This document shows, in pieces, positions 14,198 through 57,343 of a stretch of DNA of 64,000 nucleotides. Position 1 is the stretch's first letter; each line of letters opens with the position of its first letter. The notes under the pieces are model-generated. The model did not search any database, was not told the DNA's origin, and worked only from the letters and a program-made list of their open reading frames with translations. Where the stretch lies: the NCBI RefSeq assembly GCF_056712565.1, contig NZ_CM160072.1; one strand, written 5' to 3'. The translations under genes and the position numbers were made by a program.

Positions 14198-14301
14198 GCA
14201 TGAGTGCCAGATTGAAGCAGATCTTCAGGAGTAGAAATAACCGAATCGTTTTTTTCGCAAAACACAGTTTTGAGTGATTCCGTTCAGTAATCAACGCTAC
14301 G

Positions 14302-14562: not shown

Positions 14563-14621
14563 AATTGATGAGTATCTTATTGAAAGATCACAATGTAAAT
14601 CATGCTCCTGTAATGGCTGGA

Positions 14622-17051: not shown

Positions 17052-17092
17052 TCGTCGCCGTTATTTGCTCGATACCCTACAGGAGAATAAAA

Positions 17093-18601: not shown

Positions 18602-18651
18602 TTCGAGATTAGCGGGCTGGTTTCAGCCCGCCAGACAGAGAGAGCTGAAGT

Positions 18652-20649: not shown

Positions 20650-20678
20650 ACCTGCACAAGGGGTGAAAGGATGACCTT

Positions 20679-21524: not shown

Positions 21525-21724
21525 AATTAGTAAATTTCATTCTGACAGAAAGTGCTGATTATAACATAGTTTTCAGGCGTGGATAGGTGTGAAAAAAATG
21601 AAGGTGTGCAGTGAACGTAATGATTAACAGACCGGTTAATTTTCATGAATTACGTCAACTGCACAAAAATAATTTAAACGGGTGCTCTAATTAAAGCAAA
21701 ACTTATATTTTTATCATTGTATTG

Positions 21725-22630: not shown

Positions 22631-22707
22631 AAGGCTCCCTGGTCAGTGGTAAAGTGGCTGAATCTCTCCAGATTCAGCCGTAATCATTGCCTGAGTATAC
22701 CCAGGAA

Positions 22708-23931
22708 TTAGCGGTGTTGACTTGCCCGACTGAGAATCGCATACGCGATACATGCCACCAGAATCGAGTCTACCGAAGGGATCGTCGTCAGGGTGAATAA
22801 GCCTTTTACGGTCATAAAGCCAACCGCTGCGCCTATGATCCATGCTGCGAATGTCAGCACTTTAATCTGTGACTCCTGGGCTAACACTGACTCTTGATAG
22901 CCATTACGGCGATAAAGGAAAAAGTCAGCGATATAAATTCCGGCAACGGGTGGCGTGGCGATACCCAGGAACAGCAGAAACGGAATAAACCACGCCATAA
23001 TATCCATACTGCCTACGATGGCGGAAAGGATACCCAGCGCCACGGTAATCTGCCATTTGGGAAAGCGGGTAAGCAGTGTGGAAACCACCAGCGTGCCCTG
23101 GAACATATTGCCCGCGTTACCGGTGACGCAGGCGAAAATCAACAACAGCGCCGCAGGCAGAACCGCACCGAATACCGCCATCGCACCCAGTAAAGATCCC
23201 TGACCACTAATGGCGCTCGGCGTTGCACCCGCCCAGTAGAGCAGAGGGTAGGCAACCAGAAACGTCACGCCTGCGGCAATCAGCGCATGTTTGCGGTTAT
23301 GCACAAAACTACCGAAATCAGGCAGTGTGGCAACCAGCACAATAATGGTGCCAACAACGGTGGAAACGGCGACACCTGTATTCATCTCCACAATCGCCGC
23401 TGGTACTGCCACTTCGGTATGGGTTGCCACATAGAGGATGTAACACAGCACCAGCGCGATAACCGGCACGGCAACCTGGGCAATTTTTCCCAGAACGGCA
23501 AAGCCAAATGCCGTAGAGGCGACAAAAATGACACAGCCAGCCGCCACTAACAGTGCCAGTGGAACTTCCAGTCCATGTTGAGCCAGTAAGTCATGTACCG
23601 AATGACCAAACATATTGGCGGTAACGGCAATCCAGCCGAACAGACTTATCGCCATCAAAATGTTAATGGCGATGGCCCCTTTTTCGCCAAACGAATATTT
23701 CACAATGCCATACGTTGGCAGGCGGGCTTTTTCTCCCACGCTAATGGTGATGGCTGAAAGTAAGGTCAGAATGACGCCGCCTAACAATACGACGCTAATT
23801 AAACTGCCGCTGGAAAGTTGATTGCCGAGGCTTGAGGATGACAACAGCACAGGTGTGACGGCAATACCCAGCAAAATCATGGCAATACGCAATCCTGATG
23901 CCGTATTCAGATTCTCTTCTTTTTTACGCAT
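22708..23931 (-). CDS. NCS1-family (CodB-like) permease
   Basis: 407-aa polytopic membrane protein with CodB-like architecture; assignment by pattern only. Confidence 0.6.
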   Translation of the reverse strand: MRKKEENLNTASGLRIAMILLGIAVTPVLLSSSSLGNQLSSGSLISVVLLGGVILTLLSAITISVGEKARLPTYGIVKYSFGEKGAIAINILMAISLFGWIAVTANMFGHSVHDLLAQHGLEVPLALLVAAGCVIFVASTAFGFAVLGKIAQVAVPVIALVLCYILYVATHTEVAVPAAIVEMNTGVAVSTVVGTIIVLVATLPDFGSFVHNRKHALIAAGVTFLVAYPLLYWAGATPSAISGQGSLLGAMAVFGAVLPAALLLIFACVTGNAGNMFQGTLVVSTLLTRFPKWQITVALGILSAIVGSMDIMAWFIPFLLFLGIATPPVAGIYIADFFLYRRNGYQESVLAQESQIKVLTFAAWIIGAAVGFMTVKGLFTLTTIPSVDSILVACIAYAILSRASQHR

Positions 23932-23956
23932 AGTATGTTCCCTTTATAAATGCGCG

Positions 23957-24346
23957 TTACACAGTATGAAAATGCCCGGTGTATTTGCGCCAGCTACCCA
24001 GTTCTGTAATTTCCCGTTGGCCTTCGGTCAGCCAGTTTTCTGCCAGTACGCCCAGCACTTCGCTACCATCGGCAAGTTTGATTTTGCCAATTGCCAGCCC
24101 AGCGGGTTCGCTCATTAACAGAGCGGCAAAACTGGCCAGCGGTAATTGCCAAATTTCTACGTCGACGTGTGTTCCTCCTTCATTCACGCGAATCATTCCC
24201 GGATGGCGATCATTAATACTCCACAACCGGTAATGGGCGTCAGTTCGGTCTTCACGGACAAAAATACCGCCCGCTTTTTGCATATTTGGGTTGAGTTCCA
24301 GGCCGCGCATCAGCGTTCCGTTAACGGCTAAAAGCGTTGTAGTCAT
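23957..24346 (-). CDS. AIG2/gamma-glutamyl-cyclotransferase-like protein
   Basis: 129 aa; N-terminus LLAVNGTLMRG resembles the GGCT/AIG2 fold start; assignment tentative. Confidence 0.5.
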   Translation of the reverse strand: MTTTLLAVNGTLMRGLELNPNMQKAGGIFVREDRTDAHYRLWSINDRHPGMIRVNEGGTHVDVEIWQLPLASFAALLMSEPAGLAIGKIKLADGSEVLGVLAENWLTEGQREITELGSWRKYTGHFHTV

Positions 24347-24362
24347 TGTGTTCTCCAGAGAA

Positions 24363-25319
24363 TTAAAGGGTTATCCATGTACCGCTCTGATGCGCCAGGG
24401 CTGCTTTTATGGTTTGCGGTGAAGTAATCAGGCCGCTGGCCTGTTTGCCTTGTTGCTGGCTGGCATTGATGAAATCAACAATGGCTTCCACTTTGGGTTG
24501 CATACTGCCGACACCAAACTGACCTTCCCGCAACAGCGTTTGCGCTTCGGCAACGCTGATAGCGTCGAGCCACTGTTGTTGTGGTGTACCAAAGTTAATC
24601 GCTACTTTTTCTACACCGGTGGGGATCACCAGCAGATCTGCGCCTAACTGACTGGCGAGCAGCGCGGAGGCCAGATCTTTATCGATCACGGCTTCTACAC
24701 CTTTCAGTTGTTGCCCGTCTCGCACCACCGGAATACCGCCGCCGCCGCAGGCAATAACCAGATATCCCTGGCGCACCAGGTGAGCGATGGTGTCGTGCTC
24801 AATAATTTCCAGTGGTGCAGGAGAGGGAACTGTACGCCGCCAACCACGCCCGGCGTCCTCCATCAGCGTCCAGCCGAGTTGTTGTTGGCGTTGTTGGGCC
24901 GTTGCTTCATCGAGAAACGCGCCAATTGGTTTACTGGGGCTGGCGAAAGCATCGTCATGTGGGCTGACTCGCGTTTGTGTCACCAGGGCAATTACCGGTT
25001 TGTTTATGCCACGGCGAGCCAATTCGTTATGCAGCGCTTTCTGGAACATGTAGCCAATTGCACCTTGTGTATCACCCACGGCGTAATCAAGTGGAACCGG
25101 AGAAACTTCGTTACTGGCGAGTTCAGAGCGGCGCAGAATAAAGCCCACCTGCGGGCCATTACCGTGGGTTAGTACCAGGTCCCATCCGGCTTCAACCATA
25201 TCAACGATATGTTGCACGCTTTCCATCACTGCAACATATTGATCGGGAATACTATTGCGTTGCTCGTCCTGAATGAGCGCATTGCCGCCAACCGCGACGA
25301 CAGCCAGTGGCTTAACCAT
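24363..25319 (-). CDS. Carbamate kinase-like protein
   Basis: From MVKPLAVVAVGGNAL...; amino-acid kinase fold with ACGGGGIPVV motif; ORF-track start is a spurious upstream extension. Confidence 0.8.
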   Translation of the reverse strand: MVKPLAVVAVGGNALIQDEQRNSIPDQYVAVMESVQHIVDMVEAGWDLVLTHGNGPQVGFILRRSELASNEVSPVPLDYAVGDTQGAIGYMFQKALHNELARRGINKPVIALVTQTRVSPHDDAFASPSKPIGAFLDEATAQQRQQQLGWTLMEDAGRGWRRTVPSPAPLEIIEHDTIAHLVRQGYLVIACGGGGIPVVRDGQQLKGVEAVIDKDLASALLASQLGADLLVIPTGVEKVAINFGTPQQQWLDAISVAEAQTLLREGQFGVGSMQPKVEAIVDFINASQQQGKQASGLITSPQTIKAALAHQSGTWITL

Positions 25320-26736
25320 GATGGTTCTCCTTTGCGACGATCTCCGCCAGTGCACGTACAGCGGCGACAAAACAGGCCATCGGCGCAGTGGTGATCCCGG
25401 CACCAATTTGCCCGACCCCCGCTTGTTTGTGGGCGATACCCGTATTGATGACCGGTAAAATGCCGCGATCGGTCACTTTACGCGCATCAATTCCTGCTGC
25501 GGTGGGGGCAAAATTGAGGGCTGGAAGTGTAAATGCGGGGTTACCGCCGAGGGTGATGGCTTGCATCCGACGGCTGTTATTGGTGGCATCGGCAGGGGTG
25601 CCTCCCACAAATTTGACGATCGCCGGAGACGACGCCATCGCGAAGCCACCCATACCTGCGGTTTCAGTAATTGCGCTATCACCCAGGTCAGCAGCAGCGT
25701 CGTCAACGCCAAATCCGGGGAAGAACAGACCTTCAACGGCATTGGCAGGAGCCTGGAACCAGCGATCGCTAGTACCGGAAAGCCGAATACCAAAACTCAC
25801 CCCGTTACGCGCCATCACCGTAACCATTGAACTGAACGGTACATTGGCGGCGGCATCCATCATTGCTTTACAGGCGGCCATCGACAGATTGAGGAAGAAG
25901 TGATCGTTACCGGTGATAAATGCCACGACGCGCTGGATATGTTCCTGTGGAAGAGAGCAGGCCAGCAATGCCGGGAGCAGGCGCTTAATCAGCAAACCGG
26001 TAGCGGCAGCATTGCGGTTATGAACTTCATCCCCCATATGCAGCGCCTGCGCCATTAATGGCTTGAGTTCCAGCTCGCCGTGTTGTGCGATTGCTGCTTT
26101 CATTGCCGGCGCCAGTTCATCGCGCATCCAGGCCAGACGATTGAGAACTTCATCGTTATTGGCGCCAAAACGGAGAACCTTACCCAGACCTTCATTGAAA
26201 TTGCTAAAAGTACGATGGCCGTTGGTTTTGTTTTCTACCACCCATAACGGCATCGACGGGCTGATGATGCCTGCCATTGGGCCAACCGCGTGATAATGAT
26301 GACAAGGGGCAAGGTCGATTTCGCCTGCGTTTATTTGGTTTTCAGCGTCTTGCTGGCTGGTGGCCCAACCTTCGTACAGCATGGCACCAATAATCGCCCC
26401 TTTTACCGGACCACACATCTCTTCCCAGGCAATCGGCGGGCCAGAGTGCAAAATACGTTTTTGTTCAGCCATTGCTGGAATGGCCTCTTTAGCGAGCATG
26501 ACATCCACCAGCATGGGCTGTGCTTCGAGATAACGTGTCATGGCGATTTGGTTGGCATTTTCTACCAGGGGATGACGTAGCAACGATGCCAGATCCAATC
26601 CAGCGTCAATATCGCCTTGTGCTGGTGGCTGCCAGTTGAGTGCAATTGCGCTTCCCCCGGCATGTTGAATATTGTCAGCAAAACTGTGTAGTCCCGCGTT
26701 CACAACCTTCAAAGGCTGATTAAATAAGGTATTCAT
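25312..26736 (-). CDS. YlbE-like (DUF1116) protein
   Basis: About 474 aa from MNTLFNQPL; start overlaps the fdrA-like stop by 4 bp; paralogous to the K-12 allantoin-region ylbE. Confidence 0.7.
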   Translation of the reverse strand: MNTLFNQPLKVVNAGLHSFADNIQHAGGSAIALNWQPPAQGDIDAGLDLASLLRHPLVENANQIAMTRYLEAQPMLVDVMLAKEAIPAMAEQKRILHSGPPIAWEEMCGPVKGAIIGAMLYEGWATSQQDAENQINAGEIDLAPCHHYHAVGPMAGIISPSMPLWVVENKTNGHRTFSNFNEGLGKVLRFGANNDEVLNRLAWMRDELAPAMKAAIAQHGELELKPLMAQALHMGDEVHNRNAAATGLLIKRLLPALLACSLPQEHIQRVVAFITGNDHFFLNLSMAACKAMMDAAANVPFSSMVTVMARNGVSFGIRLSGTSDRWFQAPANAVEGLFFPGFGVDDAAADLGDSAITETAGMGGFAMASSPAIVKFVGGTPADATNNSRRMQAITLGGNPAFTLPALNFAPTAAGIDARKVTDRGILPVINTGIAHKQAGVGQIGAGITTAPMACFVAAVRALAEIVAKENHHG

Positions 26737-28292
26737 GCGTTTAGCCCCTTTTTCTGCAACTGAGTCTGTGCAACGGTGCTGGCCCATAGCGCCGCCTGTG
26801 CATTGCTGCTGGCGATGATGACCCCTGCATTTTGTAGTGCTCTTATCTGCTGACTGCGTATTTGCGGATCAGCTTCCGTTCCGCAAACGTGCGCAATCAG
26901 CAACGGTGCGTTATTCATGTCGATGTGTGAAAGTTGGTCCAGTAATTCGCTGGCAGGCGCCGTGGAAGCGCCATAACCAAGTACCAGGTCGAATAACACG
27001 ACGGCAGTGTGTGAGTCGTTGAGTTCGTTGAGCAGACGTTGATTGCGCAGAGTCGGGTCGATCATTGGATGCGGTTTGCCACGGGTGAAATCATCGTCGC
27101 CCATATCGATCAACGTGTGATCTTCGCTTTGCCAGATATTTGCCAGAGCACGATTACCCGCAACTGGCGTATTGGAAGCTGCGCTGAATCCCTTTTGTTG
27201 GCAGATAAGTTGCGCTTCGTAGCAGAAGGTTCCTCCGGCGAAAACACCGCGTATCGCCTGGCGATGGGCTGGCAGGCGCTGACAGGCGTTTTGTAACATT
27301 GTGAGATCGGCGCAGGAAATCTCGGTCTCGACAGCCGGAAGTGGCTGAGCATTCAGTAACGCTACGGCGATATTTGCGGCGCTGGCAAGTGTGGTGGCCG
27401 CGGTGATATTGGGACGTGCCAGATCATGCGGATTCGCACCGAGGAAATTCACCACCACGGGTTTTCCACAAGCCTCGGCGCGCTCCAGAATAGTCTGGGC
27501 AACGATCGGTGAAGGCGGTTTTGAAATCAGCACAATCACGCGAGTTTCATCGTCTTGCGCCAGCGCATCTAAAGCGAAGAGCATCGATATTCCACCAATC
27601 TCTTCACTGAGATCATGCCCACCGGTTCCCAACGCCTGAGAAATACCCGCTCCGAGCTGGTCGATTCGGCAAGTCACTTCCTGTAGCCCGGTGCCTGACG
27701 CGCCAATAACACCAATTGCTCCGCGTTTCACCACATTAGCGAAGCCTAACGGAATGCCGTTAACAATGGCGGTTCCACAGTCAGGTCCCATTACGATGCG
27801 CTGACGTTCTCGGGCAAGCGTTTTGATAGATTTTTCCTGCCCGATACTGACGTTATCGCTGAACATCATCACGTTCATTCCGAGGTTTAACGCTTTAATT
27901 GCTTCGGCGGCGGCGTAGTCTCCCGGTACAGAAATGAGTGCCAGGTTGGCTTCGGGTTCGGCTTCCAGTGCCATTTCCAGGCTGACCTTTTCCGGTGTTT
28001 TAATGCCACTATCCGTTTCATCATCGGGTTTGCTGGTCAGACGTTGCTGGGCCAGTACCAGTGCTTCATTGCAAATATCTTCTTCACCCATGACTGCAAT
28101 CACTAAATCATTGGGACTGGCGTTGATTTCGTTACCCAGACCCGCATCGCGCAATTGTTCGAGATTATTGGGCGTTCCCATGACGACCGAGGCCTGTTGA
28201 ATACCGGGCAACTTGCTGATTTGCGCGGAAATCTGCATCAGAGAAACTGAGTCCTGATAAAGATTACTGAAAACTTTATATTTAACTTTCAT
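26733..28292 (-). CDS. FdrA-like protein (CoA-binding, succinyl-CoA-synthetase-alpha-like)
   Basis: 519 aa; resembles FdrA of the K-12 allantoin region. Confidence 0.75.
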   Translation of the reverse strand: MKVKYKVFSNLYQDSVSLMQISAQISKLPGIQQASVVMGTPNNLEQLRDAGLGNEINASPNDLVIAVMGEEDICNEALVLAQQRLTSKPDDETDSGIKTPEKVSLEMALEAEPEANLALISVPGDYAAAEAIKALNLGMNVMMFSDNVSIGQEKSIKTLARERQRIVMGPDCGTAIVNGIPLGFANVVKRGAIGVIGASGTGLQEVTCRIDQLGAGISQALGTGGHDLSEEIGGISMLFALDALAQDDETRVIVLISKPPSPIVAQTILERAEACGKPVVVNFLGANPHDLARPNITAATTLASAANIAVALLNAQPLPAVETEISCADLTMLQNACQRLPAHRQAIRGVFAGGTFCYEAQLICQQKGFSAASNTPVAGNRALANIWQSEDHTLIDMGDDDFTRGKPHPMIDPTLRNQRLLNELNDSHTAVVLFDLVLGYGASTAPASELLDQLSHIDMNNAPLLIAHVCGTEADPQIRSQQIRALQNAGVIIASSNAQAALWASTVAQTQLQKKGLNA

Positions 28293-28386
28293 GCTGTTAC
28301 GCCTGTTTCATTCCGCCCGATAGCAAAATTCGGGCAAAGCATCCCCGTGTAGCCCCATAAACGGGCTACGGGAGAAAAGGTTGAAA

Positions 28387-29247
28387 TCAATTCATGGTGT
28401 TCAGGGTTCGAAAGCCATGCAGCATTCCTGCAAGGCAATCTACTCCTGACGTTGCGCCAAATTGCATGACCTGTTCTGCACAGGATGCGATTGTCATTGC
28501 CGATGCGCTCCCAACCAGTTGTGCGAGTAACTGGCAAATCGGTTCTGAAAAATGTCCCTGAAGCGCACGCTCCAGATAATGACGACTGATATCCGTGGTG
28601 TTGTGCGCATGTTGATCAATTGCCTGCTGCAACCGGTATTGATGATCGGCAAGTGGTGCAGGGAGTTGCCATAACCAGAGCGCTGCCAGATAGCCCAACA
28701 AATAGTCATCTCCATCGGGCGTTAAGCCTTTACCAAAGCCGATCAGTTGTGGCACCTGGCGTTCCAGCGCATCTGGATGCTCCATAATTGCTAATCCCTG
28801 GTGCGTGAGACTATCCGGCAGGTGCAATGTGCTTTGAACGTTATGTTCCAGACAAAATAAAAGCCGTTGCGATGCCATCGTTGGGTAGTGCTGGAAAACC
28901 AAAGGGAATGCCTCAAGTGTCAGCATTCTCCCCACAAATGGCGACTGCCAGAGCGTTGCGTTTTCGAGCGCCACACAAAATCGAGGTGTCCGCAGTAAGC
29001 CTTGGGTTAACTGAATGGGATCTGAATGGGCAATCTCTCTTCGCCAGTCCCAACATTCAGGTAGCCAGACTCTGGCAGCATCAGGGAGATTCAGATACGT
29101 TTGCGCACACAACAGAGTGATGAATGTTCCCGCGTCTGAATACAGATTTACCGCATGTTTAAAAGCGCTATGTAGACGTAAATCTTGCGTTTCATTCTGC
29201 GGGAAAAGATATCCCAACGACGATGCGCAAAGCGTAACCTGTACCAT
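28387..29247 (-). CDS. YlbF-like (DUF2877) protein
   Basis: 286 aa; position and size consistent with the third member of the FdrA/YlbE/YlbF triad; family call by context. Confidence 0.55.
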   Translation of the reverse strand: MVQVTLCASSLGYLFPQNETQDLRLHSAFKHAVNLYSDAGTFITLLCAQTYLNLPDAARVWLPECWDWRREIAHSDPIQLTQGLLRTPRFCVALENATLWQSPFVGRMLTLEAFPLVFQHYPTMASQRLLFCLEHNVQSTLHLPDSLTHQGLAIMEHPDALERQVPQLIGFGKGLTPDGDDYLLGYLAALWLWQLPAPLADHQYRLQQAIDQHAHNTTDISRHYLERALQGHFSEPICQLLAQLVGSASAMTIASCAEQVMQFGATSGVDCLAGMLHGFRTLNTMN

Positions 29248-29252
29248 CGGCG

Positions 29253-29921
29253 TTAGCCTTCCAGACCTGCAATAATGGCTTTGGAATCAGTAACCCAACC
29301 GAAAATGGCACCTTGTGCTTTGATCATCTCGAGGGCGTATTTCTGGAATTCCGGGAAATAGGAGCCGACACAATCTTCCGGGATAATGCATTCATAGCCA
29401 CGATCATTTGCTTCGCGCACGGTGGTGGTTACGCAAACTTCGGTTGTTACACCACAAACTATCAGCGTCTTGATACCGTGGTTTTGCAAAATCAGATGTA
29501 AGTCGGTTTGATAAAACGCGCCTTTGCCAGGCTTATCAATCACCGGTTCGCCTGCCACCGGGTACAGTTCAGGAATGATGTCATGACCTGCTTCACCTCT
29601 GACCAGAATGCGTCCCATCGGTCCTGGTTCACCAATAAAGGTTTTTCCGCCGCGCGTCAGTTTGGCTGGCGGGCAGTCGCTTAAGTCTGCACGATGGCCT
29701 TCACGAGTATGAATAACCATAATTCCTTTTTGACGTGCGGCTGCCAGCACCTCTGTACATGGTGCGATAGCCGTGCGTACCAGTGAAACATCATTGCCCA
29801 GAGCCTCACCGAAGCCCCCTGCTTCGACAAAGTCACGCTGCATGTCGATCATGACCAGTGCAGTTGTGCGCGGATCAAAAGGTAATTCAAAGGGTTGAGC
29901 CTGAAAAATGGATTGCGTCAT
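29253..29921 (-). CDS. Isochorismatase-family cysteine hydrolase (RutB-like amidohydrolase)
   Basis: 222 aa; motifs ALVMIDMQ, LIVCGVTTEVCVTTT and AIFGWVTD parallel the RutB catalytic triad regions; first gene of the operon. Confidence 0.8.
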   Translation of the reverse strand: MTQSIFQAQPFELPFDPRTTALVMIDMQRDFVEAGGFGEALGNDVSLVRTAIAPCTEVLAAARQKGIMVIHTREGHRADLSDCPPAKLTRGGKTFIGEPGPMGRILVRGEAGHDIIPELYPVAGEPVIDKPGKGAFYQTDLHLILQNHGIKTLIVCGVTTEVCVTTTVREANDRGYECIIPEDCVGSYFPEFQKYALEMIKAQGAIFGWVTDSKAIIAGLEG

Positions 29922-31248: not shown

Positions 31249-32013
31249 ATGTCCAAGTCTGATGTTTTTCATCTCGGCCTCACTAAAAACGATTTACAAG
31301 GGGCTACGCTTGCCATCGTCCCTGGCGACCCGGATCGTGTGGAAAAGATCGCCGCGCTGATGGATAAGCCGGTTAAGCTGGCATCTCACCGCGAATTCAC
31401 CACCTGGCGTGCAGAGCTGGATGGTAAACCTGTTATCGTCTGCTCTACCGGTATCGGCGGCCCGTCTACCTCTATTGCTGTTGAAGAGCTGGCACAGCTG
31501 GGCATTCGCACCTTCCTGCGTATCGGTACAACGGGCGCTATTCAGCCGCATATTAATGTGGGTGATGTCCTGGTTACCACGGCGTCTGTTCGTCTGGATG
31601 GCGCGAGCCTGCACTTCGCACCGCTGGAATTCCCGGCTGTCGCTGATTTCGAATGTACGACTGCGCTGGTTGAAGCTGCGAAATCCATTGGCGCGACGAC
31701 TCACGTTGGCGTGACAGCTTCTTCTGATACCTTCTACCCAGGTCAGGAACGTTACGATACTTACTCTGGTCGCGTAGTTCGTCACTTTAAAGGTTCTATG
31801 GAAGAGTGGCAGGCGATGGGCGTAATGAACTATGAAATGGAATCTGCAACCCTGCTGACCATGTGTGCAAGTCAGGGCCTGCGTGCCGGTATGGTAGCGG
31901 GGGTTATCGTTAACCGCACCCAGCAAGAGATCCCGAATGCTGAGACGATGAAACAAACCGAAAGCCATGCGGTGAAAATCGTGGTGGAAGCGGCGCGTCG
32001 TCTGCTGAAATAA
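31249..32013 (+). CDS. udp: Uridine phosphorylase
   Basis: [31 protein letters not shown]... matches Udp. Confidence 0.96.
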
Positions 32014-32018
32014 AAAAA

Positions 32019-32040
32019 CGCTCCCCAACTTCGGGGAGCG
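32019..32040. terminator. GC-rich hairpin (cgctccccaacttcggggagcg) between convergent udp and tctA-like genes; A-tract on its 5' side
   Basis: Inverted repeat read in the sequence immediately after the udp stop; likely a bidirectional terminator. Confidence 0.55.
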
Positions 32041-32047
32041 ATACCAG

Positions 32048-33538
32048 TTATTGACGCCGTAAACGCATTATTTTGCGGATTATTGGCGTCAGTAGCGTAA
32101 AGGCGGCCAGAGTCAGCAATGCCAGAGTGATCGGTCGGGTATACAGAAAGTCGAGTGAACCCCCTGAAAGCGACAGCGCACGGCGAAAATTACTTTCCGC
32201 CATTGGCCCCATAATCAATGCCAGGACCACTGGCGACGCCGGATATCCCCCTTTCTGCATGAAATAGCCCACTACGCCCGCAATCAACATAATGCCGACA
32301 TCAAACAGGCTGTTGTTCAGTGCATAAGTCCCGACCACACAAAGTGCGAGGATCATCGGTGTGAGAATATTGCCGGGAATTTTCACCACATTACCGATGA
32401 CTTTCAAAGAGAGCAGTCCAAGAACTAGTAGCATGAAGTAACAGAAGATCATGCCGACAAACAGCGTATAAACCATATCACCGTGGTCGGTAAACATCAG
32501 CGGGCCTGGTTGCATTCCCTGTAACGTTAACGCGCCCAGCATGATGGCGGTTACCGCATCGCCAGGGATCCCCAGCGTCAGCATAGGTAACAATGCGCCA
32601 CCGGTGCAGCCATTCGCGCCTGCCTCACAGGAGGCCACAGCTTTAATTTCACCCTTACCAAAGTTTTCTGGTGTCTTACTGAAACGACGAGTTTCGTTAT
32701 AGGCAACAAAAGCTGCAATATCCGCCCCCGCACCGGGGATCATGCCGATAAAAACCCCTAATCCTGATGAGCGCAAAATGGTTAATGCGATGCGGCGTAG
32801 TGTTTGCCAGGGCAGTAACAGACTGCCGATAGCCACCTTCGCGCCCCGACGAATTTGCTGGTTTTGCTCCATAGAGCGGAATGCTTCTGAAGCAGCAAAT
32901 AAACCAATCATCACCGGGATAAATGGCACATTCATCAGCTCCACAAATCCACCTGTAAACCGTGGAAAACCGCCCATTGGATCAAGGCCTATCGTTGCGA
33001 TCAGCAATCCGCCAACCCCGGCAATCAGCCCCTTAATCAGCGACTCACCGGAAATACTGGCAATAATGCTCAGTCCGAAGGTTGCCAGGGCGAAGGACTC
33101 CGAGGCACTAAATTTCAGCGCCCAACTGGCAAGTACCGGAGAGAGAAACATCAGCACGATAATGCTGAGCGTTCCGCCACTAAAGGAAGAGAACGTGGCG
33201 GCACTCAATGCCAGCCCTGCTTTTCCCTGTTTCGTCAGCTCATAACCATCAATAGCGGTGGCTGCGGCGGCAGGTGTTCCGGGAATTTTGAGCAAAATTG
33301 CGGTGATAGAACCACCGTAGACGCCACCAAAAAAGACGCCGCAAATCATCAACAATCCAGAAACAGGCTCCATGCCGTAGGTGAAAGGCAGCAAAATCGC
33401 CACACCCATGGTCGCTGTCAGACCAGGCAAAGCGCCAATCACAATACCCAGCATCACCCCAAAAGTGGCAAACAGCAGCGCCTGAGGATTATTGAGTAAT
33501 GTCGAAAAACCCTGAGTTAAAAGTTCACTTTCAAACAT
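32048..33538 (-). CDS. Tripartite tricarboxylate transporter, large permease TctA-like
   Basis: 496-aa polytopic membrane protein, last gene of the tctCBA-like set. Confidence 0.8.
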   Translation of the reverse strand: MFESELLTQGFSTLLNNPQALLFATFGVMLGIVIGALPGLTATMGVAILLPFTYGMEPVSGLLMICGVFFGGVYGGSITAILLKIPGTPAAAATAIDGYELTKQGKAGLALSAATFSSFSGGTLSIIVLMFLSPVLASWALKFSASESFALATFGLSIIASISGESLIKGLIAGVGGLLIATIGLDPMGGFPRFTGGFVELMNVPFIPVMIGLFAASEAFRSMEQNQQIRRGAKVAIGSLLLPWQTLRRIALTILRSSGLGVFIGMIPGAGADIAAFVAYNETRRFSKTPENFGKGEIKAVASCEAGANGCTGGALLPMLTLGIPGDAVTAIMLGALTLQGMQPGPLMFTDHGDMVYTLFVGMIFCYFMLLVLGLLSLKVIGNVVKIPGNILTPMILALCVVGTYALNNSLFDVGIMLIAGVVGYFMQKGGYPASPVVLALIMGPMAESNFRRALSLSGGSLDFLYTRPITLALLTLAAFTLLTPIIRKIMRLRRQ

Positions 33539-33550
33539 TGCTGGCCCCTG

Positions 33551-34060
33551 TTATTCGAAAAATGTGCCGACAGGCAATGGCACCTGTAACGCTTCGACAA
33601 ACAGCAACCAGAGGATTGCCGTTAACAGCAGCGCAATACCCGGTGTGAGTACCCATCGCCTGTAGCCCATCAACGTCATAATGACGATGAGGAAAACAGG
33701 AGTAGTAATGAGATAACCGCAGTAGCTCATCGCCACAATATAAAACGCGGTTGCCGCAATTCCTGTTGCTGTTTTCCTGAATGCCGGTTTTTCCTGTGCG
33801 TTGGCGCAAGAGGCTGGTTTTGCCTGCAAAAGATCGCGTATCACCAGCAAGACAGCGAGCACAATCAGGGCACAGGCATAGAAGGTAGGGAAGGCACTTG
33901 CACCGGGATCCGTTTCAATGGCAGTTGCTGGAAAATCAGCGGCATTAATCATCACCGCGCCAGCAACCACACAAAGTAACAGCGCCACCACCATCGTTGA
34001 TGAAAGGCGCTTGCGGTGCGGTACGGCGAGTTGAGCAACAGACTGTTTTGTGTTCATCAA
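33551..34060 (-). CDS. Tripartite tricarboxylate transporter, small permease TctB-like
   Basis: 169-aa, 4-TM protein between tctC-like and tctA-like genes. Confidence 0.7.
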   Translation of the reverse strand: MMNTKQSVAQLAVPHRKRLSSTMVVALLLCVVAGAVMINAADFPATAIETDPGASAFPTFYACALIVLAVLLVIRDLLQAKPASCANAQEKPAFRKTATGIAATAFYIVAMSYCGYLITTPVFLIVIMTLMGYRRWVLTPGIALLLTAILWLLFVEALQVPLPVGTFFE

Positions 34061-34073
34061 CCGTACCTCAGGT

Positions 34074-35048
34074 TTATTTTTTCAGGCCCAGGCGAGTCAG
34101 CAACTCGTCAAAGTACTTTTCCTGTTCGCTGATTTGGGTCTGGAAGCTGGCAGCGTCAAGCCATGCATAGTTGAGATTCAACTTTTGCAGTGCATCCTGG
34201 AATGCAGGCTCTTCAGCCGTCTCTTTTGCTGCCTTTGCCAGAACATCCACCACATCCTGCTGCGTTTTTTGCGACACAATCAGGCCGCGCCAGGTGCCGA
34301 TGGAGAGATCAACGCCTTTCTCTTTTAACGTCGGGACGTCAGGCATGGTTTTCATTCGCTCATCCGCCATCACTACCAGTGTCTTCAGCTTGCCGCCATT
34401 CACATGGTTGATAACTTCTCCTGGGCTTACGGAAACCGCTTCAATGTGCCCACCTAACAGGCCTGTAATGGCAGGGGCTGCGCCGTCATACGGGACATGA
34501 GAAAACTTTGCGCCCGTTTTGTCTTCCAGTGCAGCTGCCGCCAGATGCCAGATAGCTCCGGTGCCTGAGTTACCAATGCGTACTTTTCCGGGATTCGCTT
34601 TGGCGTAAGTCATAAATTCTTCATAGCTATTCCACGGCGCATCGGCACGGACTGTGATAGCAGCCGGATCCGCATTCAGACGGGCAATGGGTTTAAAGTC
34701 GCTGGTTTTAAAACGCACCATTCCGAGGCTGGGAAGGGTGGTTAGTTCAACCGTGCCTAAACCAATTTTGTAACCGTTAGGGCGGGCAGCGGCGATTTCA
34801 CTCAGGCCGATAGCACCGCCTCCGCCAGGTTTATTGATAACCCCGATGCTGACGGGTAAATGGTTTTTGGCGGCATCAGCAAAGGCACGGGCAACCAGAT
34901 CCGTACCGCCTCCGGCAGCGTAGGGAACGACTAACTCGATCTGTTTGGTTGGGTAGGAGGCTGCCTGTACAGGCGCAATGCTGAGGGCAGCGCCTGCAAG
35001 AAGTACCATTGCAGCCATTTTTTTCGGTAAGGTAAGATGTTTTATCAT
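34074..35048 (-). CDS. Tripartite tricarboxylate transporter, periplasmic binding protein TctC-like (Bug family)
   Basis: 324 aa with signal peptide (MIKHLTLPKKMAAMVLLAGAALSIAPVQA) and Bug/TctC-like body. Confidence 0.8.
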   Translation of the reverse strand: MIKHLTLPKKMAAMVLLAGAALSIAPVQAASYPTKQIELVVPYAAGGGTDLVARAFADAAKNHLPVSIGVINKPGGGGAIGLSEIAAARPNGYKIGLGTVELTTLPSLGMVRFKTSDFKPIARLNADPAAITVRADAPWNSYEEFMTYAKANPGKVRIGNSGTGAIWHLAAAALEDKTGAKFSHVPYDGAAPAITGLLGGHIEAVSVSPGEVINHVNGGKLKTLVVMADERMKTMPDVPTLKEKGVDLSIGTWRGLIVSQKTQQDVVDVLAKAAKETAEEPAFQDALQKLNLNYAWLDAASFQTQISEQEKYFDELLTRLGLKK

Positions 35049-35072
35049 TGCTTTTATATCCTTATTTATCAG

Positions 35073-35702
35073 TTAGTTGCTATTTAAATTGTTCCATGCG
35101 TTCATAAACAGTACTGCATTTTCATAGACTTGCTCTGGCGTCATGCCGGGGCGATATAGCGCAGAACCGAGGCCAAAGCCGTTTGCGCCGTGGCTCAGAT
35201 AATGCGCCATGGTTTCCGGTGTGATACCGCCAACCGGTAACATCGGAACGGATTGTGGAATAACCGCACGCCAGGCTTTGGTAACTTCTGGCGTAATTTG
35301 TTCAGCCGGGAACAGCTTGATGGCATTAGCACCATGTTCAATGGCAGCAAAGGCTTCGGTGGGCGTGGCGACGCCAGGCGCACAATACATACCCAGCGCA
35401 CGGGCGCGACGGATCACCGCAGTATCGCAATGCGGCATCACGATAATCTGGCCCCCAGCCTCTTTAACCGCAACCACCTGCTCTACCGAAAGCACAGTTC
35501 CGGCTCCGACCAGGCAGTCCTTAGGCAGGGCGTCGCGCAGTAAACTGATACTTTGCAACGCCTCCGGCGAGTTCATAGGAATCTCAATCAGGCGGAATCC
35601 GGCGGCGTACAGTTTTTCACCGATGGCGACAATCTCATCCGGTTTCACACCGCGTAAAATGGCGACTAACCCGGTTTTTTGCAAAAGCGTATTAAATGGC
35701 AT
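35073..35702 (-). CDS. 2-dehydro-3-deoxy-6-phosphogalactonate (KDPGal) aldolase-like, DgoA family
   Basis: From MPFNTLLQKTGLVAILRG...; blocks LVAILRG, EIPMNSP, GAGTVL and VGGITPE parallel E. coli DgoA; ORF-track start extends into the upstream kinase. Confidence 0.8.
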   Translation of the reverse strand: MPFNTLLQKTGLVAILRGVKPDEIVAIGEKLYAAGFRLIEIPMNSPEALQSISLLRDALPKDCLVGAGTVLSVEQVVAVKEAGGQIIVMPHCDTAVIRRARALGMYCAPGVATPTEAFAAIEHGANAIKLFPAEQITPEVTKAWRAVIPQSVPMLPVGGITPETMAHYLSHGANGFGLGSALYRPGMTPEQVYENAVLFMNAWNNLNSN

Positions 35703-36696
35703 GGGTACATTCCCTGGCGTTGGTGGACAGTAACCCGGCAGCGTGGGCGATTCGCCATAATCCCTGTTCAGTGGCATTGGGAATGGCGTGTATCTGTCTG
35801 TCGGGAAAAACGTGGCTGAATGCTTGTGAATAGCGGCTGTTCAGATTTGCGCTACCGATTAAGGCGATCGGTGTTGTGGCGGGTAAATCACGTAGCAAAC
35901 TGGATGCCAGACCACATAATTCATGGCCTATCAGTAATCCGGAAAGGTAATCCCCCTGCGAGGACGACGTAAGATTACTGGTCAGCAGGCGCGAACGGGT
36001 CGAAAACAGCGTCGATAATAATCCGGTCTGATGATGCTCTTGTGCTGCTGTCAGCCCGTGGGTGAAGGCATCCCAGTGCGGTTCATCTCCAGGATGCATG
36101 GTGGCACCGAGAATCGAATGGCGGGATAAAACATCAAATAACTCGCCCGTCATAAAGGTTCGGAAATCGGTAATGGTGTTGTTTTCAACTACTGCCCATT
36201 TCGCATGTGTGCCGGGTAAGCCTATCAGCACTGGCATACCCTGATGGATTGCGTTTTGCAGGGCCGGTTCCATCGAGATAGCACCGAAGATTTGTGTCTC
36301 TTCGCCACGCATCACTTCGGGCATTTCACCTTCTTTAATCACGCCAGGAATGATGTGCAGCATTGTCTGCTGCTGGTGGATAACAGGCGTCAACTGCTTC
36401 GCCAGACCCTCGAGAGTGACCGGGCAAGGTAAATAAGCTGCTGGTTGCCACCCTTGCGCACTGCCGAGCATGCCGCAAGCCAGTACCGGGCATGGGGTTT
36501 GTGCCAGCCAGTCGCTGCAGACACGTAAAAACGTATCGTGGAAAGTGTCCTCACGTGTTGCTGCCTGGGAGGGTAATTTCATGATCCCCCAGGGGAATTC
36601 ACGTTTTTCTTGTGGATTTGGTGATTCGCCAAAACGCCATGCCCGAAGCGATGACGTTCCCCAGTCCAGGGCAATAAATGAGGGTGCTCCCGGCAT
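35692..36696 (-). CDS. 2-dehydro-3-deoxygalactonokinase-like, DgoK family
   Basis: 334 aa; blocks IALDWGTSSLRAW, VMRGEETQ, PGTHAKW, DFRTFMTGEL and LSGLLIG parallel DgoK. Confidence 0.8.
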   Translation of the reverse strand: MPGAPSFIALDWGTSSLRAWRFGESPNPQEKREFPWGIMKLPSQAATREDTFHDTFLRVCSDWLAQTPCPVLACGMLGSAQGWQPAAYLPCPVTLEGLAKQLTPVIHQQQTMLHIIPGVIKEGEMPEVMRGEETQIFGAISMEPALQNAIHQGMPVLIGLPGTHAKWAVVENNTITDFRTFMTGELFDVLSRHSILGATMHPGDEPHWDAFTHGLTAAQEHHQTGLLSTLFSTRSRLLTSNLTSSSQGDYLSGLLIGHELCGLASSLLRDLPATTPIALIGSANLNSRYSQAFSHVFPDRQIHAIPNATEQGLWRIAHAAGLLSTNARECTHAI

Positions 36697-36719
36697 TAGT
36701 CGTTTCCTTTAATCATGGT

Positions 36720-37487
36720 TTATTTATCTTTGCGGACGTGCTTACCCCAGCCCAGTTCAGCGGATATCTCTTCTGCACAGGATTTGACGTAAGGTGCCAG
36801 TTCTTCCAGACGCGCCAGCGACATATACGTGGTGGTACTGGCGACAGAAATAGCCGCCACAATTTCATCCCGGGCGTTGTAAACCGGCGCTGCAACGCAA
36901 CGGATAGTCGGCTCGTTCTCTTCCAGATCAAAAGCAAAACCACTGGCGGCATAACGACGCATGTTCTGAATAAATGCGCCCAGTTTTGTTTCATCACCAC
37001 AGGTCTTAAACAGCGTGCGCCACTCTTCTTCTGTTCGGTTGAGGATCAATGCCTTGCCGATGCCGGTGATTGCCAGTGGCATGCGATGGCCTGGGCGTGA
37101 GCGCATTTCCAGCCCGCGCTGACTGTTGATCTTCTCCAGATACAGCACTTCGTCGCCTTCAACGATCCCCAGATGCACGGTGTCCAGGGTGTAACGGGCA
37201 AGGCGTTGCAAAACGGGCTGGGCAATTTCGTACAGCGAGGTGCTTTCCAGTGCTCTGGCACCGAATTCGATCAGTTTGGCACCCAGTTGGTAGCCCTGCG
37301 TTGGGACATGGCGCAGGTAGCGTTGTTCCACCAGAACGGTGACTAAACGATGGGTTGTGCTCCGGGTCGTGCCGGTGAACTCGCCGATACTTTTTAGGTC
37401 ATGGCAGCCGTTATAAACAGCATTAAGAACCGCCAGTCCACGTAATAACGTTTGTGCGCCTGCGGTGGTTGAAGAGGTTTCTGCCAT
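36720..37487 (-). CDS. IclR-family transcriptional regulator (KdgR-like)
   Basis: From MAETSSTTAGAQTLLRGLAVL... (255 aa); N-terminal wHTH and C-terminal effector domain typical of IclR. Confidence 0.8.
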   Translation of the reverse strand: MAETSSTTAGAQTLLRGLAVLNAVYNGCHDLKSIGEFTGTTRSTTHRLVTVLVEQRYLRHVPTQGYQLGAKLIEFGARALESTSLYEIAQPVLQRLARYTLDTVHLGIVEGDEVLYLEKINSQRGLEMRSRPGHRMPLAITGIGKALILNRTEEEWRTLFKTCGDETKLGAFIQNMRRYAASGFAFDLEENEPTIRCVAAPVYNARDEIVAAISVASTTTYMSLARLEELAPYVKSCAEEISAELGWGKHVRKDK

Positions 37488-37703
37488 ACGTTTCTCCTGA
37501 TGATATTGCTGAAGTGTTCCACATAATGACGTGGGGAAAAGGTGATATATCCCACAATATAAACTCCATCTCATATTGTGGGATAAAATAATGAAAATTA
37601 ACGATCGTTTTGCGTAGCGCCTCGCAGGAAACTTCTTTCAAACTGGACGTTTGTACAGCACAATTCTATTTTGTGCGGGTAAGTTGTTGCGTCAGGAGGC
37701 GTT

Positions 37704-39994: not shown

Positions 39995-42237
<2,243 letters not shown>

Positions 42238-47639: not shown

Positions 47640-47880
47640 AACTAAAACTTTATTCAGTGGCATTTAGATCTATGTCGCATCCGGCAATTGGTGCACGATG
47701 CCTGATGCGACGCTGGCGCGTCTTATCAGGCCTACATTGGTGCCGGATCGGTAGACCGGATAAGGCGTTCACGCCGTATCCGGCATACAGTGCCCGATGC
47801 GACGCTGCCGCGTCTTATCGGGCCTACAAAAGTTCTGAACCGTAGGCCGGATAAGGCGTTCACGCCGCATCCGGCAAGTG
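47640..47880. repeat. Cluster of REP/BIME elements between fre and fadA
   Basis: Several copies of gatgcgacgctg(g/c)cgcgtcttatc(a/g)ggcctac and ccggataaggcgttcacgcc(g/a)(t/c)atccggca motifs in alternating orientation. Confidence 0.8.

Positions 47881-55801: not shown

Positions 55802-57343
<1,542 letters not shown>

What the first reader, a model, noticed from the sequence alone, without database searches (positions are those of the whole stretch)
32048..37487. udp-rmuC island: DgoK/DgoA-like kinase and aldolase with a TctCBA tripartite transporter and IclR regulator
Six co-directional genes are inserted where K-12 has only a short udp-rmuC spacer. The kinase and aldolase are clear paralogues of the D-galactonate pathway enzymes, but are coupled to a tripartite tricarboxylate-type transporter rather than a DgoT-type MFS permease, and controlled by an IclR rather than a GntR regulator. 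This suggests uptake and catabolism of a different 2-keto-3-deoxy sugar acid.
Basis: partly seen in the sequence, partly recalled or inferred. Interest (0 to 1): 0.55.

Follow-up and report, generated by a model that had tools for sequence, protein, structure and literature searches.

The report
Keto-deoxy sugar-acid uptake and cleavage operon
About a quarter of E. coli strains carry, between udp and rmuC, a compact six-gene operon that most likely imports a ready-made 2-keto-3-deoxy sugar acid and splits it into pyruvate and glyceraldehyde-3-phosphate; the genes are of ordinary kinds, but this combination and its substrate have never been characterised.

Summary
Six co-directional minus-strand genes (iclR, a DGOK-family kinase, a DgoA-like aldolase, tctC, tctB, tctA) replace the 140-bp K-12 udp-rmuC spacer. 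All family assignments hold. The islet is in 1452 of 5426 complete E. coli genomes, is intact and is under purifying selection. A 2012 paper noted it as "6 ORFs with unknown functions".

New here:
- The same cassette is conserved as a unit across alpha-, beta- and gammaproteobacteria.
- It sits at the same udp/rmuC site in Metakosakonia and Klebsiella indica, so K-12 may have lost it rather than other strains gaining it.
- No dehydratase accompanies it in any locus examined.
- A conserved TCCCA-N5-TGG-type operator lies upstream of iclR.

Best reading: a self-contained, IclR-controlled module that takes up a free 2-keto-3-deoxy-hexonate, phosphorylates it and cleaves it. It works like KdgR/KdgT/KdgK/Eda. 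Enzyme signatures point to 2-keto-3-deoxy-D-galactonate.

Caveat: accessory genes in other genera (an A1-R-type DEH reductase, KduI, KduD) and the nearest characterised binding protein (Vibrio, alginate products) point instead to KDG or unsaturated-uronate chemistry. The exact substrate is unresolved. Moderately interesting; a new variant of a known kind.

The parts
36720..37487 (-). iclR: IclR-family transcriptional regulator (255 aa) and first gene of the operon. It is the predicted autoregulated repressor.
   Evidence: ORF and RefSeq WP_000852398.1. NCBIfam best hits are BhcR (142.7 bits) and KdgR (129.7 bits), both far below their equivalog cut-offs. An AGGAG ribosome-binding site lies 7 nt before the ATG.
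35692..36696 (-). DGOK-family sugar-acid kinase (334 aa), annotated as 2-dehydro-3-deoxygalactonokinase.
   Evidence: Pfam PF05035, E 1.3e-88, full length. PDB hits: 3R1X Klebsiella DgoK, E 2e-37, and 3T69. 35.6% identical to K-12 DgoK. The DWGTS, MRGEETQ, PGTHxKW and SGLLIG motifs are aligned and conserved.
35073..35702 (-). Class I (Schiff-base) 2-keto-3-deoxy-6-phosphohexonate aldolase of DgoA type (209 aa). Its start overlaps the kinase stop by 11 nt.
   Evidence: NF006600, 321.8 bits, cut-off 207. PDB 2V81 E. coli DgoA, E 4e-50. 44% identical to DgoA and 25% to Eda. R17/E40/N44/K129/V157 match DgoA R14/E37/N41/K126/V154.
34074..35048 (-). [quoted passage not shown] It has an N-terminal signal peptide; the cleavage site after A29 was read by eye.
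   Evidence: PF03401 on the 98%-identical representative. PDB hits: 4X9T, E 7e-99; 25HK (Vibrio TTT-C), E 3.5e-63; BugD, E 9e-48.
33551..34057 (-). tctB: small membrane subunit of the TTT transporter (168 aa).
   Evidence: Pfam PF07331, E 1.9e-21. RefSeq WP_001093393.1.
32048..33538 (-). tctA: large permease subunit of the TTT transporter (496 aa).
   Evidence: Pfam PF01970, E 1.9e-151. pN/pS of about 0.01 against two other E. coli lineages.
37548..37585 (.). Candidate operator: a perfect 13-nt inverted repeat, TATCCCACAATAT-N12-ATATTGTGGGATA. It comprises two TCCCACAATAT half-operators, 60-100 nt upstream of the iclR ATG.
   Evidence: Inverted repeat. The two exact TCCCACAATAT copies in the 64-kb window are both here. 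Related TCCCA-N5-TGG palindromes lie upstream of iclR in orthologous cassettes. The degenerate motif hits only 7 of 98 loci, always upstream of the cassette iclR.
32019..32040 (.). Bidirectional intrinsic terminator shared by the convergent udp and tctA genes.
   Evidence: A 9-bp stem with 7 GC pairs, flanked by T and A runs.
32008..37607 (.). Extent of DNA absent from K-12-type strains (about 5.6 kb). The left junction is on the udp stop codon, so udp is one codon longer than in K-12. The right junction is just before TTTTGCGTAGCGCC, upstream of rmuC.
   Evidence: Alignment with the K-12 spacer. The presence/absence split across 5426 genomes is binary.

Best explanation
The six genes form one IclR-controlled operon: a self-contained route for scavenging a free 2-keto-3-deoxy-hexonate.

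Proposed mechanism:
1. The periplasmic TctC protein captures the acid.
2. TctA and TctB carry it across the inner membrane.
3. The DGOK-family kinase phosphorylates it at C6.
4. The DgoA-type Schiff-base aldolase (Lys129) cleaves the product to pyruvate plus D-glyceraldehyde-3-phosphate.
5. The IclR protein represses the operon, and itself, by binding the inverted TCCCACAATAT repeats upstream. The acid or its phosphate releases it.

The most likely substrate is 2-keto-3-deoxy-D-galactonate (KDGal). As I recall, K-12 can neither import KDGal nor be induced by it. Functionally the module is the galacto-configured counterpart of KdgR/KdgT/KdgK/Eda.

Shown here: gene content, family membership, conserved catalytic residues, conservation of the cassette and the operator motif, absence of a dehydratase, and purifying selection.

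Inferred: the substrate identity, the direction and energy coupling of transport, repression, and the inducer.
For: Operon anatomy:
- Intergenic gaps are 12-24 nt and the kinase and aldolase genes overlap.
- One terminator lies after tctA.

All families were confirmed.

Aldolase:
- It keeps DgoA's E37, K126, N41, R14 and V154.
- Validated KDPG aldolases (E. coli Eda and the T. maritima enzyme) have Thr at position 154.

Conservation of the cassette:
- The same R-K-A-C-B-A cassette appears in 19 of 23 distinct taxa whose binding protein is at least 57% identical, across alpha-, beta- and gammaproteobacteria.
- In E. coli, Metakosakonia, K. indica, Brenneria, Uliginosibacterium and Pseudoroseomonas it stands alone among unrelated genes.

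No dehydratase:
- No DgoD-like ORF lies within 9 kb in any of the 79 loci.
- No dehydratase Pfam family appears in the eight Pfam-annotated neighbourhoods.

Link between the transporter and keto-deoxy acids:
- Binding-protein orthologues (61-67% identical) in Brevibacillus sit with IclR, a PfkB kinase whose best hit is the KDG/KDGal kinase model, and an Eda-type aldolase.
- This ties the transporter clade to keto-deoxy-hexonates rather than to the DGOK enzyme as such.

Operator:
- The motif is conserved and found only at these promoters.

Selection:
- pN/pS is about 0.1 between E. coli lineages and the ORFs are intact.

Other points:
- KDPGal accumulation is toxic (PMC12288454), which fits tight kinase-aldolase coupling.
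- From my own knowledge (Cooper 1978, Arch Microbiol 118:199; not retrieved): K-12 cannot grow on KDGal unless dgo and kdgT are both derepressed.
Against: - No experiment exists on any of these proteins.
- The accessory genes recurring beside the cassette in other genera make KDG, or compounds with KDG's C4 configuration, and not D-KDGal. They are: an SDR 73% identical to the Sphingomonas A1-R DEH reductase; KduI inside the operon of a Firmicutes MAG; DhuD/DhuI-like genes in Photobacterium; and kduI-kduD-kdgT 4 kb away in Azospirillum thermophilum.
- The nearest characterised binding protein (Vibrio TTT-C, 39% identical) binds unsaturated alginate products.
- The kinase is only 36% identical to DgoK, matches no NCBIfam model, and evolves fast (48-54% identity between enterobacterial genera). 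Its specificity is therefore not secure.
- The Val/Thr stereochemistry rule rests on three characterised enzymes.
- No natural source of free KDGal in the gut or urinary tract has been demonstrated.
Confidence: 0.55

Rival explanations
1. KDG or unsaturated-uronate salvage. The transporter takes up 2-keto-3-deoxy-D-gluconate or a 4-deoxy-5-hexosulose uronate (DEH or DKI) released by polysaccharide-lyase-producing neighbours. The DGOK-like kinase and DgoA-like aldolase of this clade then act on KDG and KDPG, or on an L-threo isomer. The 'galactonate' names would be mis-annotations. In E. coli the reductase/isomerase step would be supplied by the chromosomal kduI and kduD genes.
For: - An A1-R-type DEH reductase (73% identical) lies in or beside 12 of 19 DGOK-type cassettes.
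- KduI sits in-operon with a DGOK-family kinase and a Val-type aldolase in L033.
- DhuD/DhuI-like genes are present in Photobacterium pectinilyticum.
- kduI, kduD and kdgT lie next to the cassette in Azospirillum thermophilum.
- Vibrio TTT-C binds unsaturated alginate products, and E. coli TctC shares its distinctive G24, G183 and T225.
- Bacilli pair the same binding-protein clade with KdgK-like and Thr-type (KDPG) aldolases.
Against: - The E. coli islet lacks the reductase and the isomerase.
- E. coli already has a complete KdgR-KdgT-KdgK-Eda system, so a second KDG route would be redundant.
- All cassette aldolases carry the DgoA signature, not the Eda signature.
- The binding-pocket residue aligned to 25HK S164 is Asn in 10 of 12 cassettes with the reductase and never Asn in the 7 without it, including E. 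coli (Ala191). This suggests a different ligand in reductase-free cassettes.
Confidence: 0.25
2. High-affinity D-galactonate (or other aldonate) uptake. TctCBA imports D-galactonate, the unlinked dgo-operon dehydratase DgoD converts it to KDGal, and the islet kinase and aldolase add capacity.
For: - The kinase and aldolase are homologous to DgoK and DgoA.
- E. coli has dgoD elsewhere.
- Lactonase-like SGL genes occur beside some cassettes and could fit an aldose-to-aldonate route.
Against: - No dehydratase is linked in any of about 25 orthologous cassettes (and the Pfam tables).
- D-galactonate would induce dgoK and dgoA anyway, making the islet enzymes redundant.
- A separately regulated IclR operon lacking its committed first enzyme is an unusual design.
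- The transporter clade's wider context is keto-deoxy and uronate metabolism.
Confidence: 0.12
3. A decaying or functionless remnant, or a citrate/tricarboxylate transporter that only happens to lie next to the two enzymes.
For: - The islet is absent from about 73% of E. coli genomes.
- iclR is frameshifted in one strain.
- The kinase and regulator diverge quickly between genera.
Against: - All six ORFs are intact in the genomes inspected. pN/pS is about 0.1 overall and about 0.01 for tctA.
- Gene order, overlap and operator are conserved across three proteobacterial classes.
- TctC is only distantly related to the citrate- and aspartate-type Bug proteins.
Confidence: 0.05

Closest known systems
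E. coli dgoRKADT operon (D-galactonate catabolism)
   Same: It has a DGOK-family kinase followed by an overlapping class I KDPGal-type aldolase, with the same catalytic residues. The end products are pyruvate and GAP.
   Different: The islet has no DgoD dehydratase, a TTT transporter instead of the MFS DgoT, and an IclR regulator instead of the GntR/FadR DgoR. The kinase and aldolase are only 36% and 44% identical to DgoK and DgoA.
KdgR regulon of enterobacteria (kdgT, kdgK, eda)
   Same: The logic is the same: an IclR-family repressor controls direct uptake of a ready-made 2-keto-3-deoxy-hexonate, its phosphorylation and its aldol cleavage, with no dehydratase needed.
   Different: Every protein is non-orthologous. 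The regulator scores 129.7 bits against the KdgR cut-off of 275. The kinase is DGOK-family, not PfkB. The aldolase is DgoA-type, not Eda-type. The transporter is TTT, not KdgT. All genes are in one operon rather than scattered.
Vibrio sp. C42 TTT of the alginate utilisation locus (TTT-C, PDB 25HK; PMC13390454)
   Same: It is the nearest experimentally characterised TTT binding protein (39% identity). G24, T25, D26, P104, G183, T225 and R227 are shared. Both systems feed a kinase/aldolase keto-deoxy-acid pathway.
   Different: The Vibrio system binds unsaturated alginate oligosaccharides and sits with lyases, KdgF, DehR, KdgK and Eda. The E. coli pocket differs at S164 (Ala) and E165 (Pro), and no lyases or reductase are linked.
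Salmonella TctCBA citrate transporter and Bordetella Bug proteins
   Same: The three-component architecture, the gene order C-B-A and the Pfam families are the same.
   Different: Regulation is by IclR, not by the TctDE two-component system. The system is linked to sugar-acid enzymes. BugD and BugE are much more distant than 4X9T and 25HK.
PDB 4X9T (uncharacterised UPF0065/TctC protein, structural genomics)
   Same: It is the closest solved structure (52% identity, E 7e-99). The pocket residues are nearly identical.
   Different: The PDB molecule name gives no function, so it adds no information on the substrate.

Membership tests
Tripartite tricarboxylate transporter (TTT, TctCBA) | TctA large permease (PF01970) | tested here: met
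   E 1.9e-151, model positions 1-423 of 423.
Tripartite tricarboxylate transporter (TTT, TctCBA) | TctB small membrane subunit (PF07331) | tested here: met
   E 1.9e-21, model positions 2-137 of 137.
Tripartite tricarboxylate transporter (TTT, TctCBA) | Periplasmic TctC/Bug binding protein (PF03401) with a signal peptide | tested here: met
   PF03401 on the 98%-identical representative. TctC/Bug structures are the best PDB hits. The signal peptide was read from the sequence only.
Tripartite tricarboxylate transporter (TTT, TctCBA) | Transports a tricarboxylate such as citrate | not testable with these tools
   The gene context argues for a sugar acid instead.
DgoK (2-dehydro-3-deoxygalactonokinase, EC 2.7.1.58) | DGOK fold and family (PF05035) | tested here: met
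   E 1.3e-88. PDB 3R1X and 3T69 hits.
DgoK (2-dehydro-3-deoxygalactonokinase, EC 2.7.1.58) | Orthology with characterised DgoK | tested here: inconclusive
   35.6% identity. In an NJ tree with a single genuine DgoK, the cassette kinases are about as far from DgoK as from one another. No NCBIfam model is matched.
DgoK (2-dehydro-3-deoxygalactonokinase, EC 2.7.1.58) | Specificity for KDGal over KDG | not testable with these tools
   This needs an enzyme assay.
DgoA (KDPGal aldolase, EC 4.1.2.21) | Family model score above the curated cut-off | tested here: met
   NF006600, 321.8 bits, cut-off 207.
DgoA (KDPGal aldolase, EC 4.1.2.21) | Schiff-base Lys and general-base Glu, plus Val (not Thr) at DgoA position 154 | tested here: met
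   K129, E40 and V157 align with K126, E37 and V154. Eda and the T. maritima KDPG aldolase have Thr. The role of V154/T161 in stereoselectivity is from my recollection of Walters et al. 2008.
dgoRKADT D-galactonate operon | DgoD dehydratase, DgoT MFS permease and a GntR-family DgoR | tested here: not met
   None of the three is present in the islet or beside any orthologous cassette. The true dgo operon is elsewhere on the chromosome.
KdgR regulon | KdgR equivalog regulator, PfkB KdgK, Eda and KdgT | tested here: not met
   The regulator scores 129.7 bits against the KdgR cut-off of 275. The kinase is DGOK, the aldolase is DgoA-type and the transporter is TTT. The resemblance is one of design, not of membership.
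Horizontally acquired genomic island | Integrase or transposase, tRNA target, flanking direct repeats, deviant base composition | tested here: not met
   There is no mobility gene among the six ORFs and no tRNA nearby. GC is 49-56%, like the flanks. No repeat is seen at the junctions. The same site is occupied in two other genera.
Horizontally acquired genomic island | Presence/absence polymorphism within the species | tested here: met
   1452 of 5426 complete genomes carry at least 80% of it. In the 20 genomes sampled across the ranking, coverage falls straight from 100% to the 5% contributed by the flanks.

The most novel reading that the evidence does not exclude
The R-K-A-CBA cassette may be the core of an unrecognised, widespread TTT-dependent pathway. 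In it, DGOK-family kinases and DgoA-like aldolases would process keto-deoxy acids derived from polysaccharide-lyase products (DEH or DKI via an A1-R-type reductase, KduI and KduD) rather than from galactonate. The 'galactonate' annotations of thousands of genes would then be wrong, and the Val/Thr stereochemical rule for KDPG and KDPGal aldolases would fail in this clade. In E. coli (phylogroup B2 ExPEC, B strains and others) the islet would be a cross-feeding trait for scavenging such acids released by pectin-, glycosaminoglycan-, alginate- or carrageenan-degrading gut bacteria.
Probability: 0.25. Interest if true: 0.65.

Novelty: new variant of a known kind. Interest (0 to 1): 0.42.

Why it matters
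The islet is carried by about 27% of complete E. coli genomes. Carriers include ST131 (JJ1886), APEC O1 and the B/BL21 laboratory lineage. It has stood as '6 ORFs of unknown function' since 2012.

A concrete, testable assignment would do three things:
- Fill an annotation gap for a cassette found across three proteobacterial classes, with related forms in Firmicutes.
- Extend the known substrate range of TTT transporters.
- Add a candidate nutrient-niche determinant that separates ExPEC and B strains from K-12.

The conflict between the enzyme signatures (KDGal) and the comparative context (KDG and uronate-derived acids) is itself a useful test of how far sugar-acid specificities can be read from homology.

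Tried and rejected
- Literature searches for the islet, for its RefSeq accessions, and for TTT combined with KDGal, KDG or DgoK found only the 2012 mention and the 2026 Vibrio TTT paper.
- I tried to see whether the characterised Sphingomonas A1-R gene lies in such a cassette. The A1-R sequence is on record only as PDB/UniRef entries with no contig. Its closest relative with a contig (83% identical, Rhodocyclaceae MAG) is a stand-alone gene. Papers citing A1-K and A1-A do not say which families they belong to.
- NCBIfam gave no hit for the kinase, TctC, TctB or TctA. Pfam settled these.
- The simple sigma-70 scan found no convincing promoter on the operon strand upstream of iclR. A possible CRP-like TGTGG-N6-TCACC overlapping the second half-operator was seen by eye only and is not claimed.
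- A first operator pattern with the wrong spacing found nothing. The corrected pattern worked.
- Rfam and tRNA scans found nothing inside the islet.
- I worked out the stereochemistry by hand. Aldehyde reduction of DKI (L-threo) would give L-KDGal, and DEH gives KDG. Neither gives D-KDGal, so the A1-R-type reductase cannot be reconciled simply with a D-KDGal pathway.
- I rejected the mobile-island reading (no mobility features, shared site in other genera) and the citrate-transporter reading.

Full report
**What is there.** The window is E. coli chromosome, 100% identical over the region to strain HS13-1. Between udp (+ strand, ending at 32013) and rmuC (+ strand, starting at 37704) lie six tightly packed minus-strand genes:

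| Gene | Coordinates |
|---|---|
| iclR | 36720-37487 |
| DGOK-family kinase | 35692-36696 |
| DgoA-like aldolase | 35073-35702 |
| tctC | 34074-35048 |
| tctB | 33551-34057 |
| tctA | 32048-33538 |

The aldolase start overlaps the kinase stop by 11 nt. The other gaps are 12-24 nt. A strong bidirectional hairpin at 32019-32040 terminates both tctA and the convergent udp. K-12 has only a 140-bp spacer here. Alignment puts the left junction on the udp stop codon, so udp is one codon longer than in K-12, and the right junction at 37608. About 5.6 kb is therefore islet-specific.

**Family assignments.**
- Kinase: Pfam DGOK, E 1e-88.
- TctB: Pfam TctB, E 2e-21.
- TctA: Pfam TctA, E 2e-151.
- TctC: PF03401 on the 98%-identical cluster representative, with TctC/Bug structures as best PDB hits.
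- Aldolase: passes NCBI's curated KDPGal-aldolase model (321.8 bits against a cut-off of 207). It is 44% identical to E. coli DgoA and 25% to Eda.
- Kinase identity to E. coli DgoK: 36%. The ATP- and sugar-binding motifs align with Klebsiella DgoK 3R1X.
- Regulator: an IclR-family protein that is not an equivalog of KdgR, IclR, AllR or BhcR.

**Distribution and history.**
- At least 80% of the islet is present in 1452 of 5426 complete E. coli genomes. Among the 20 genomes sampled across the ranking there were no intermediate states: the others match only the flanks.
- Carriers include JJ1886 (ST131) and C43(DE3), a BL21 derivative. K-12 and O157:H7 lack it.
[quoted passage not shown] 6 ORFs with unknown functions' in APEC O1 (PMC3349570). 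I found no later functional study.
- There is no integrase, tRNA, flanking repeat or compositional anomaly.
- The same six genes occupy the same udp/rmuC(ubiE) position in Metakosakonia massiliensis and Klebsiella indica.
- In those two genera TctA (85-90%) and TctC (80-84%) are about as conserved as the flanking core genes. The kinase (48-54%), TctB, the aldolase and the regulator diverge much faster.
- An old enterobacterial locus lost in K-12-type lineages is therefore at least as likely as an insertion.
- Within E. coli the genes are intact and under purifying selection. Overall pN/pS is about 0.1, and about 0.01 for tctA, although the counts for the small genes are low.
- One strain has a frameshifted iclR.

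**Comparative context.** I searched one representative genome per bacterial and archaeal species with an alignment of TctC orthologues and obtained 79 loci. I labelled their ORFs with seed proteins.
- Of 23 distinct taxa whose binding protein is at least 57% identical to the E. coli one, 19 have IclR, a DGOK-like kinase and a DgoA-like aldolase adjacent to TctCBA. They span alpha-, beta- and gammaproteobacteria.
- In Brenneria, Uliginosibacterium and Pseudoroseomonas, and in the three enterobacterial genera, the six genes stand alone among unrelated neighbours.
- No DgoD-like gene was found within 9 kb of any locus.
- No dehydratase Pfam family appears in the eight Pfam-annotated neighbourhoods.
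- In Brevibacillus, binding proteins 61-67% identical to the E. coli one sit instead with IclR, a PfkB kinase whose best match is the bifunctional KDG/KDGal kinase model, an Eda-type aldolase and a GhrB-like reductase.
- More distant members of the clade (46-55% identical) in Bacilli, Clostridia and a spirochaete are likewise next to PfkB or DGOK-family kinases and aldolases.

The transporter clade, not just this operon, is therefore tied to kinase-plus-aldolase catabolism of keto-deoxy sugar acids. The absence of a dehydratase implies that the imported molecule is already the keto-deoxy acid.

**Regulation.**
- A perfect 13-nt inverted repeat (TATCCCACAATAT-N12-ATATTGTGGGATA, 37548-37585) lies 60-100 nt upstream of iclR. 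Its two TCCCACAATAT cores are the only exact copies in the 64-kb window.
- Related TCCCA-N5-TGG(G/A)(A/C) palindromes occur upstream of iclR in Azospirillum, Skermanella, Acetobacteraceae, Uliginosibacterium, Brenneria, Rhodoferax and Spirabiliibacterium.
- The degenerate pattern TCCCAYWATDTGG occurs in only 7 of the 98 fetched loci. Every hit lies within about 170 nt upstream of the cassette's iclR.
- By my arithmetic, about 0.6 hits would be expected by chance in roughly 1.6 Mb.
- I take this to be the operator of an autoregulated IclR-type repressor. This is an inference; no binding data exist.

**Which acid?** The evidence points in two directions.

For D-KDGal:
- The kinase family has only KDGal kinases among its characterised members.
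- Every cassette aldolase carries the DgoA pattern R14/N41/V154. E. coli Eda and the T. maritima KDPG aldolase have Thr at position 154. The Bacilli aldolases paired with PfkB kinases also have Thr.
- E. coli already has a complete KDG system, but no way to import KDGal or be induced by it. I recall this from Cooper 1978, which I did not retrieve.
- KDPGal accumulation is toxic (PMC12288454), which fits the overlapping kinase and aldolase genes.

For KDG or uronate-derived acids:
- In 12 of the 19 DGOK-type cassettes an SDR is present that is 73% identical to Sphingomonas A1-R, the reductase that converts alginate-derived DEH to KDG.
- A lactonase-like SGL protein accompanies seven of them.
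- KduI lies inside the operon in a Firmicutes MAG, and DhuD/DhuI-like genes follow the cassette in Photobacterium pectinilyticum.
- kduI, kduD and kdgT lie 4 kb from the cassette in Azospirillum thermophilum.
- The nearest characterised binding protein, Vibrio TTT-C (39% identical), binds unsaturated alginate products. It shares its 'distinctive' G24, G183 and T225 with E. coli TctC.

Working through the Fischer projections by hand, DEH reduction gives KDG and DKI reduction would give L-KDGal. Both have KDG's C4 configuration, and neither is D-KDGal. I cannot reconcile this and record it as unexplained.

One hint that reductase-free cassettes bind a different ligand: the pocket residue aligned to TTT-C S164 (E. 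coli Ala191) is Asn in 10 of 12 cassettes with the reductase and never Asn in the 7 without it. Fisher's exact p is 0.0007, uncorrected for phylogeny.

**Verdict.** The best-supported model is a self-contained, IclR-repressed module for uptake, phosphorylation and cleavage of a free 2-keto-3-deoxy-hexonate, most likely KDGal. It works like the KdgR regulon but is built from non-orthologous parts (confidence 0.55). KDG or uronate-derived salvage is the main rival (0.25). Dehydratase-dependent galactonate uptake (0.12) and a functionless remnant (0.05) are less likely. It is a new variant of a known kind, of moderate interest, and directly testable with ligand screening, enzyme assays and transfer of the islet into K-12.

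Noticed in passing
window 14300-29921: The ExPEC 'tkt1' genomic island lies between metE and ysgA. It carries hxlB, a ptsG-like IIBC gene, tkt, RpiR and LysR regulators, a cytosine permease, an allophanate hydrolase-related gene, arcC, DUF1116, fdrA, DUF2877 and a cysteine hydrolase. A tssD pseudogene with an internal stop sits at 14876-16009 (PMC3349570).
   Followed up: partly
window 32008-32040: udp is one codon longer than in K-12 (...LLK* against ...LL*) because the islet junction falls on its stop codon. The K-12 udp terminator is replaced by a bidirectional hairpin shared with tctA.
   Followed up: yes
L094 5591-10999; L095 5551-10997: Metakosakonia massiliensis and Klebsiella indica carry the same six genes at the same udp-proximal site. 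Metakosakonia has no rmuC between iclR and ubiE. The transport genes are conserved like core genes, but the kinase is only 48-54% identical.
   Followed up: partly
L097 5020-5774: In E. coli DSM 101139 the islet's iclR is annotated as frameshifted while the five downstream genes are intact. This strain may be a natural constitutive mutant.
   Followed up: no
L005 5079-7258 and 13239-14003: The Enterobacter hormaechei version of the cassette has a divergently transcribed Fe-ADH plus a very divergent second DGOK-family gene (about 20% identical) upstream. A second IclR gene lies downstream and is closer to the E. coli regulator (61%) than the operon's own regulator is (53%).
   Followed up: no
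L011 13100-14858; L003 6505-7281 and 13184-14089; L023 7734-8522: An SDR 73% identical to the Sphingomonas A1-R DEH reductase, often with an SMP-30/lactonase-like gene, recurs in or beside the cassette in other genera but is absent from E. coli. Its product stereochemistry does not match the DgoA-type aldolase signature.
   Followed up: partly
window 34476-34478 (TctC Ala191) and SBP alignment: The binding-pocket position aligned to Vibrio TTT-C S164 is Asn in 10 of 12 cassettes that include the A1-R-like reductase. It is Ala, or Thr in one case, in the 7 that lack the reductase, E. coli included.
   Followed up: partly
window 40349-40600; 47754-47824; 55802-60904: Rfam matches outside the finding: Erse sRNA inside the ubiJ region, naRNA4, and a complete rrn operon with tRNA-Ile and tRNA-Ala spacer genes.
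   Followed up: no
window 582-1924: Two small accessory-looking genes (a DUF943 family gene and a YPO3983 family gene) lie between corA and rarD in the HS13-1 annotation.
   Followed up: no
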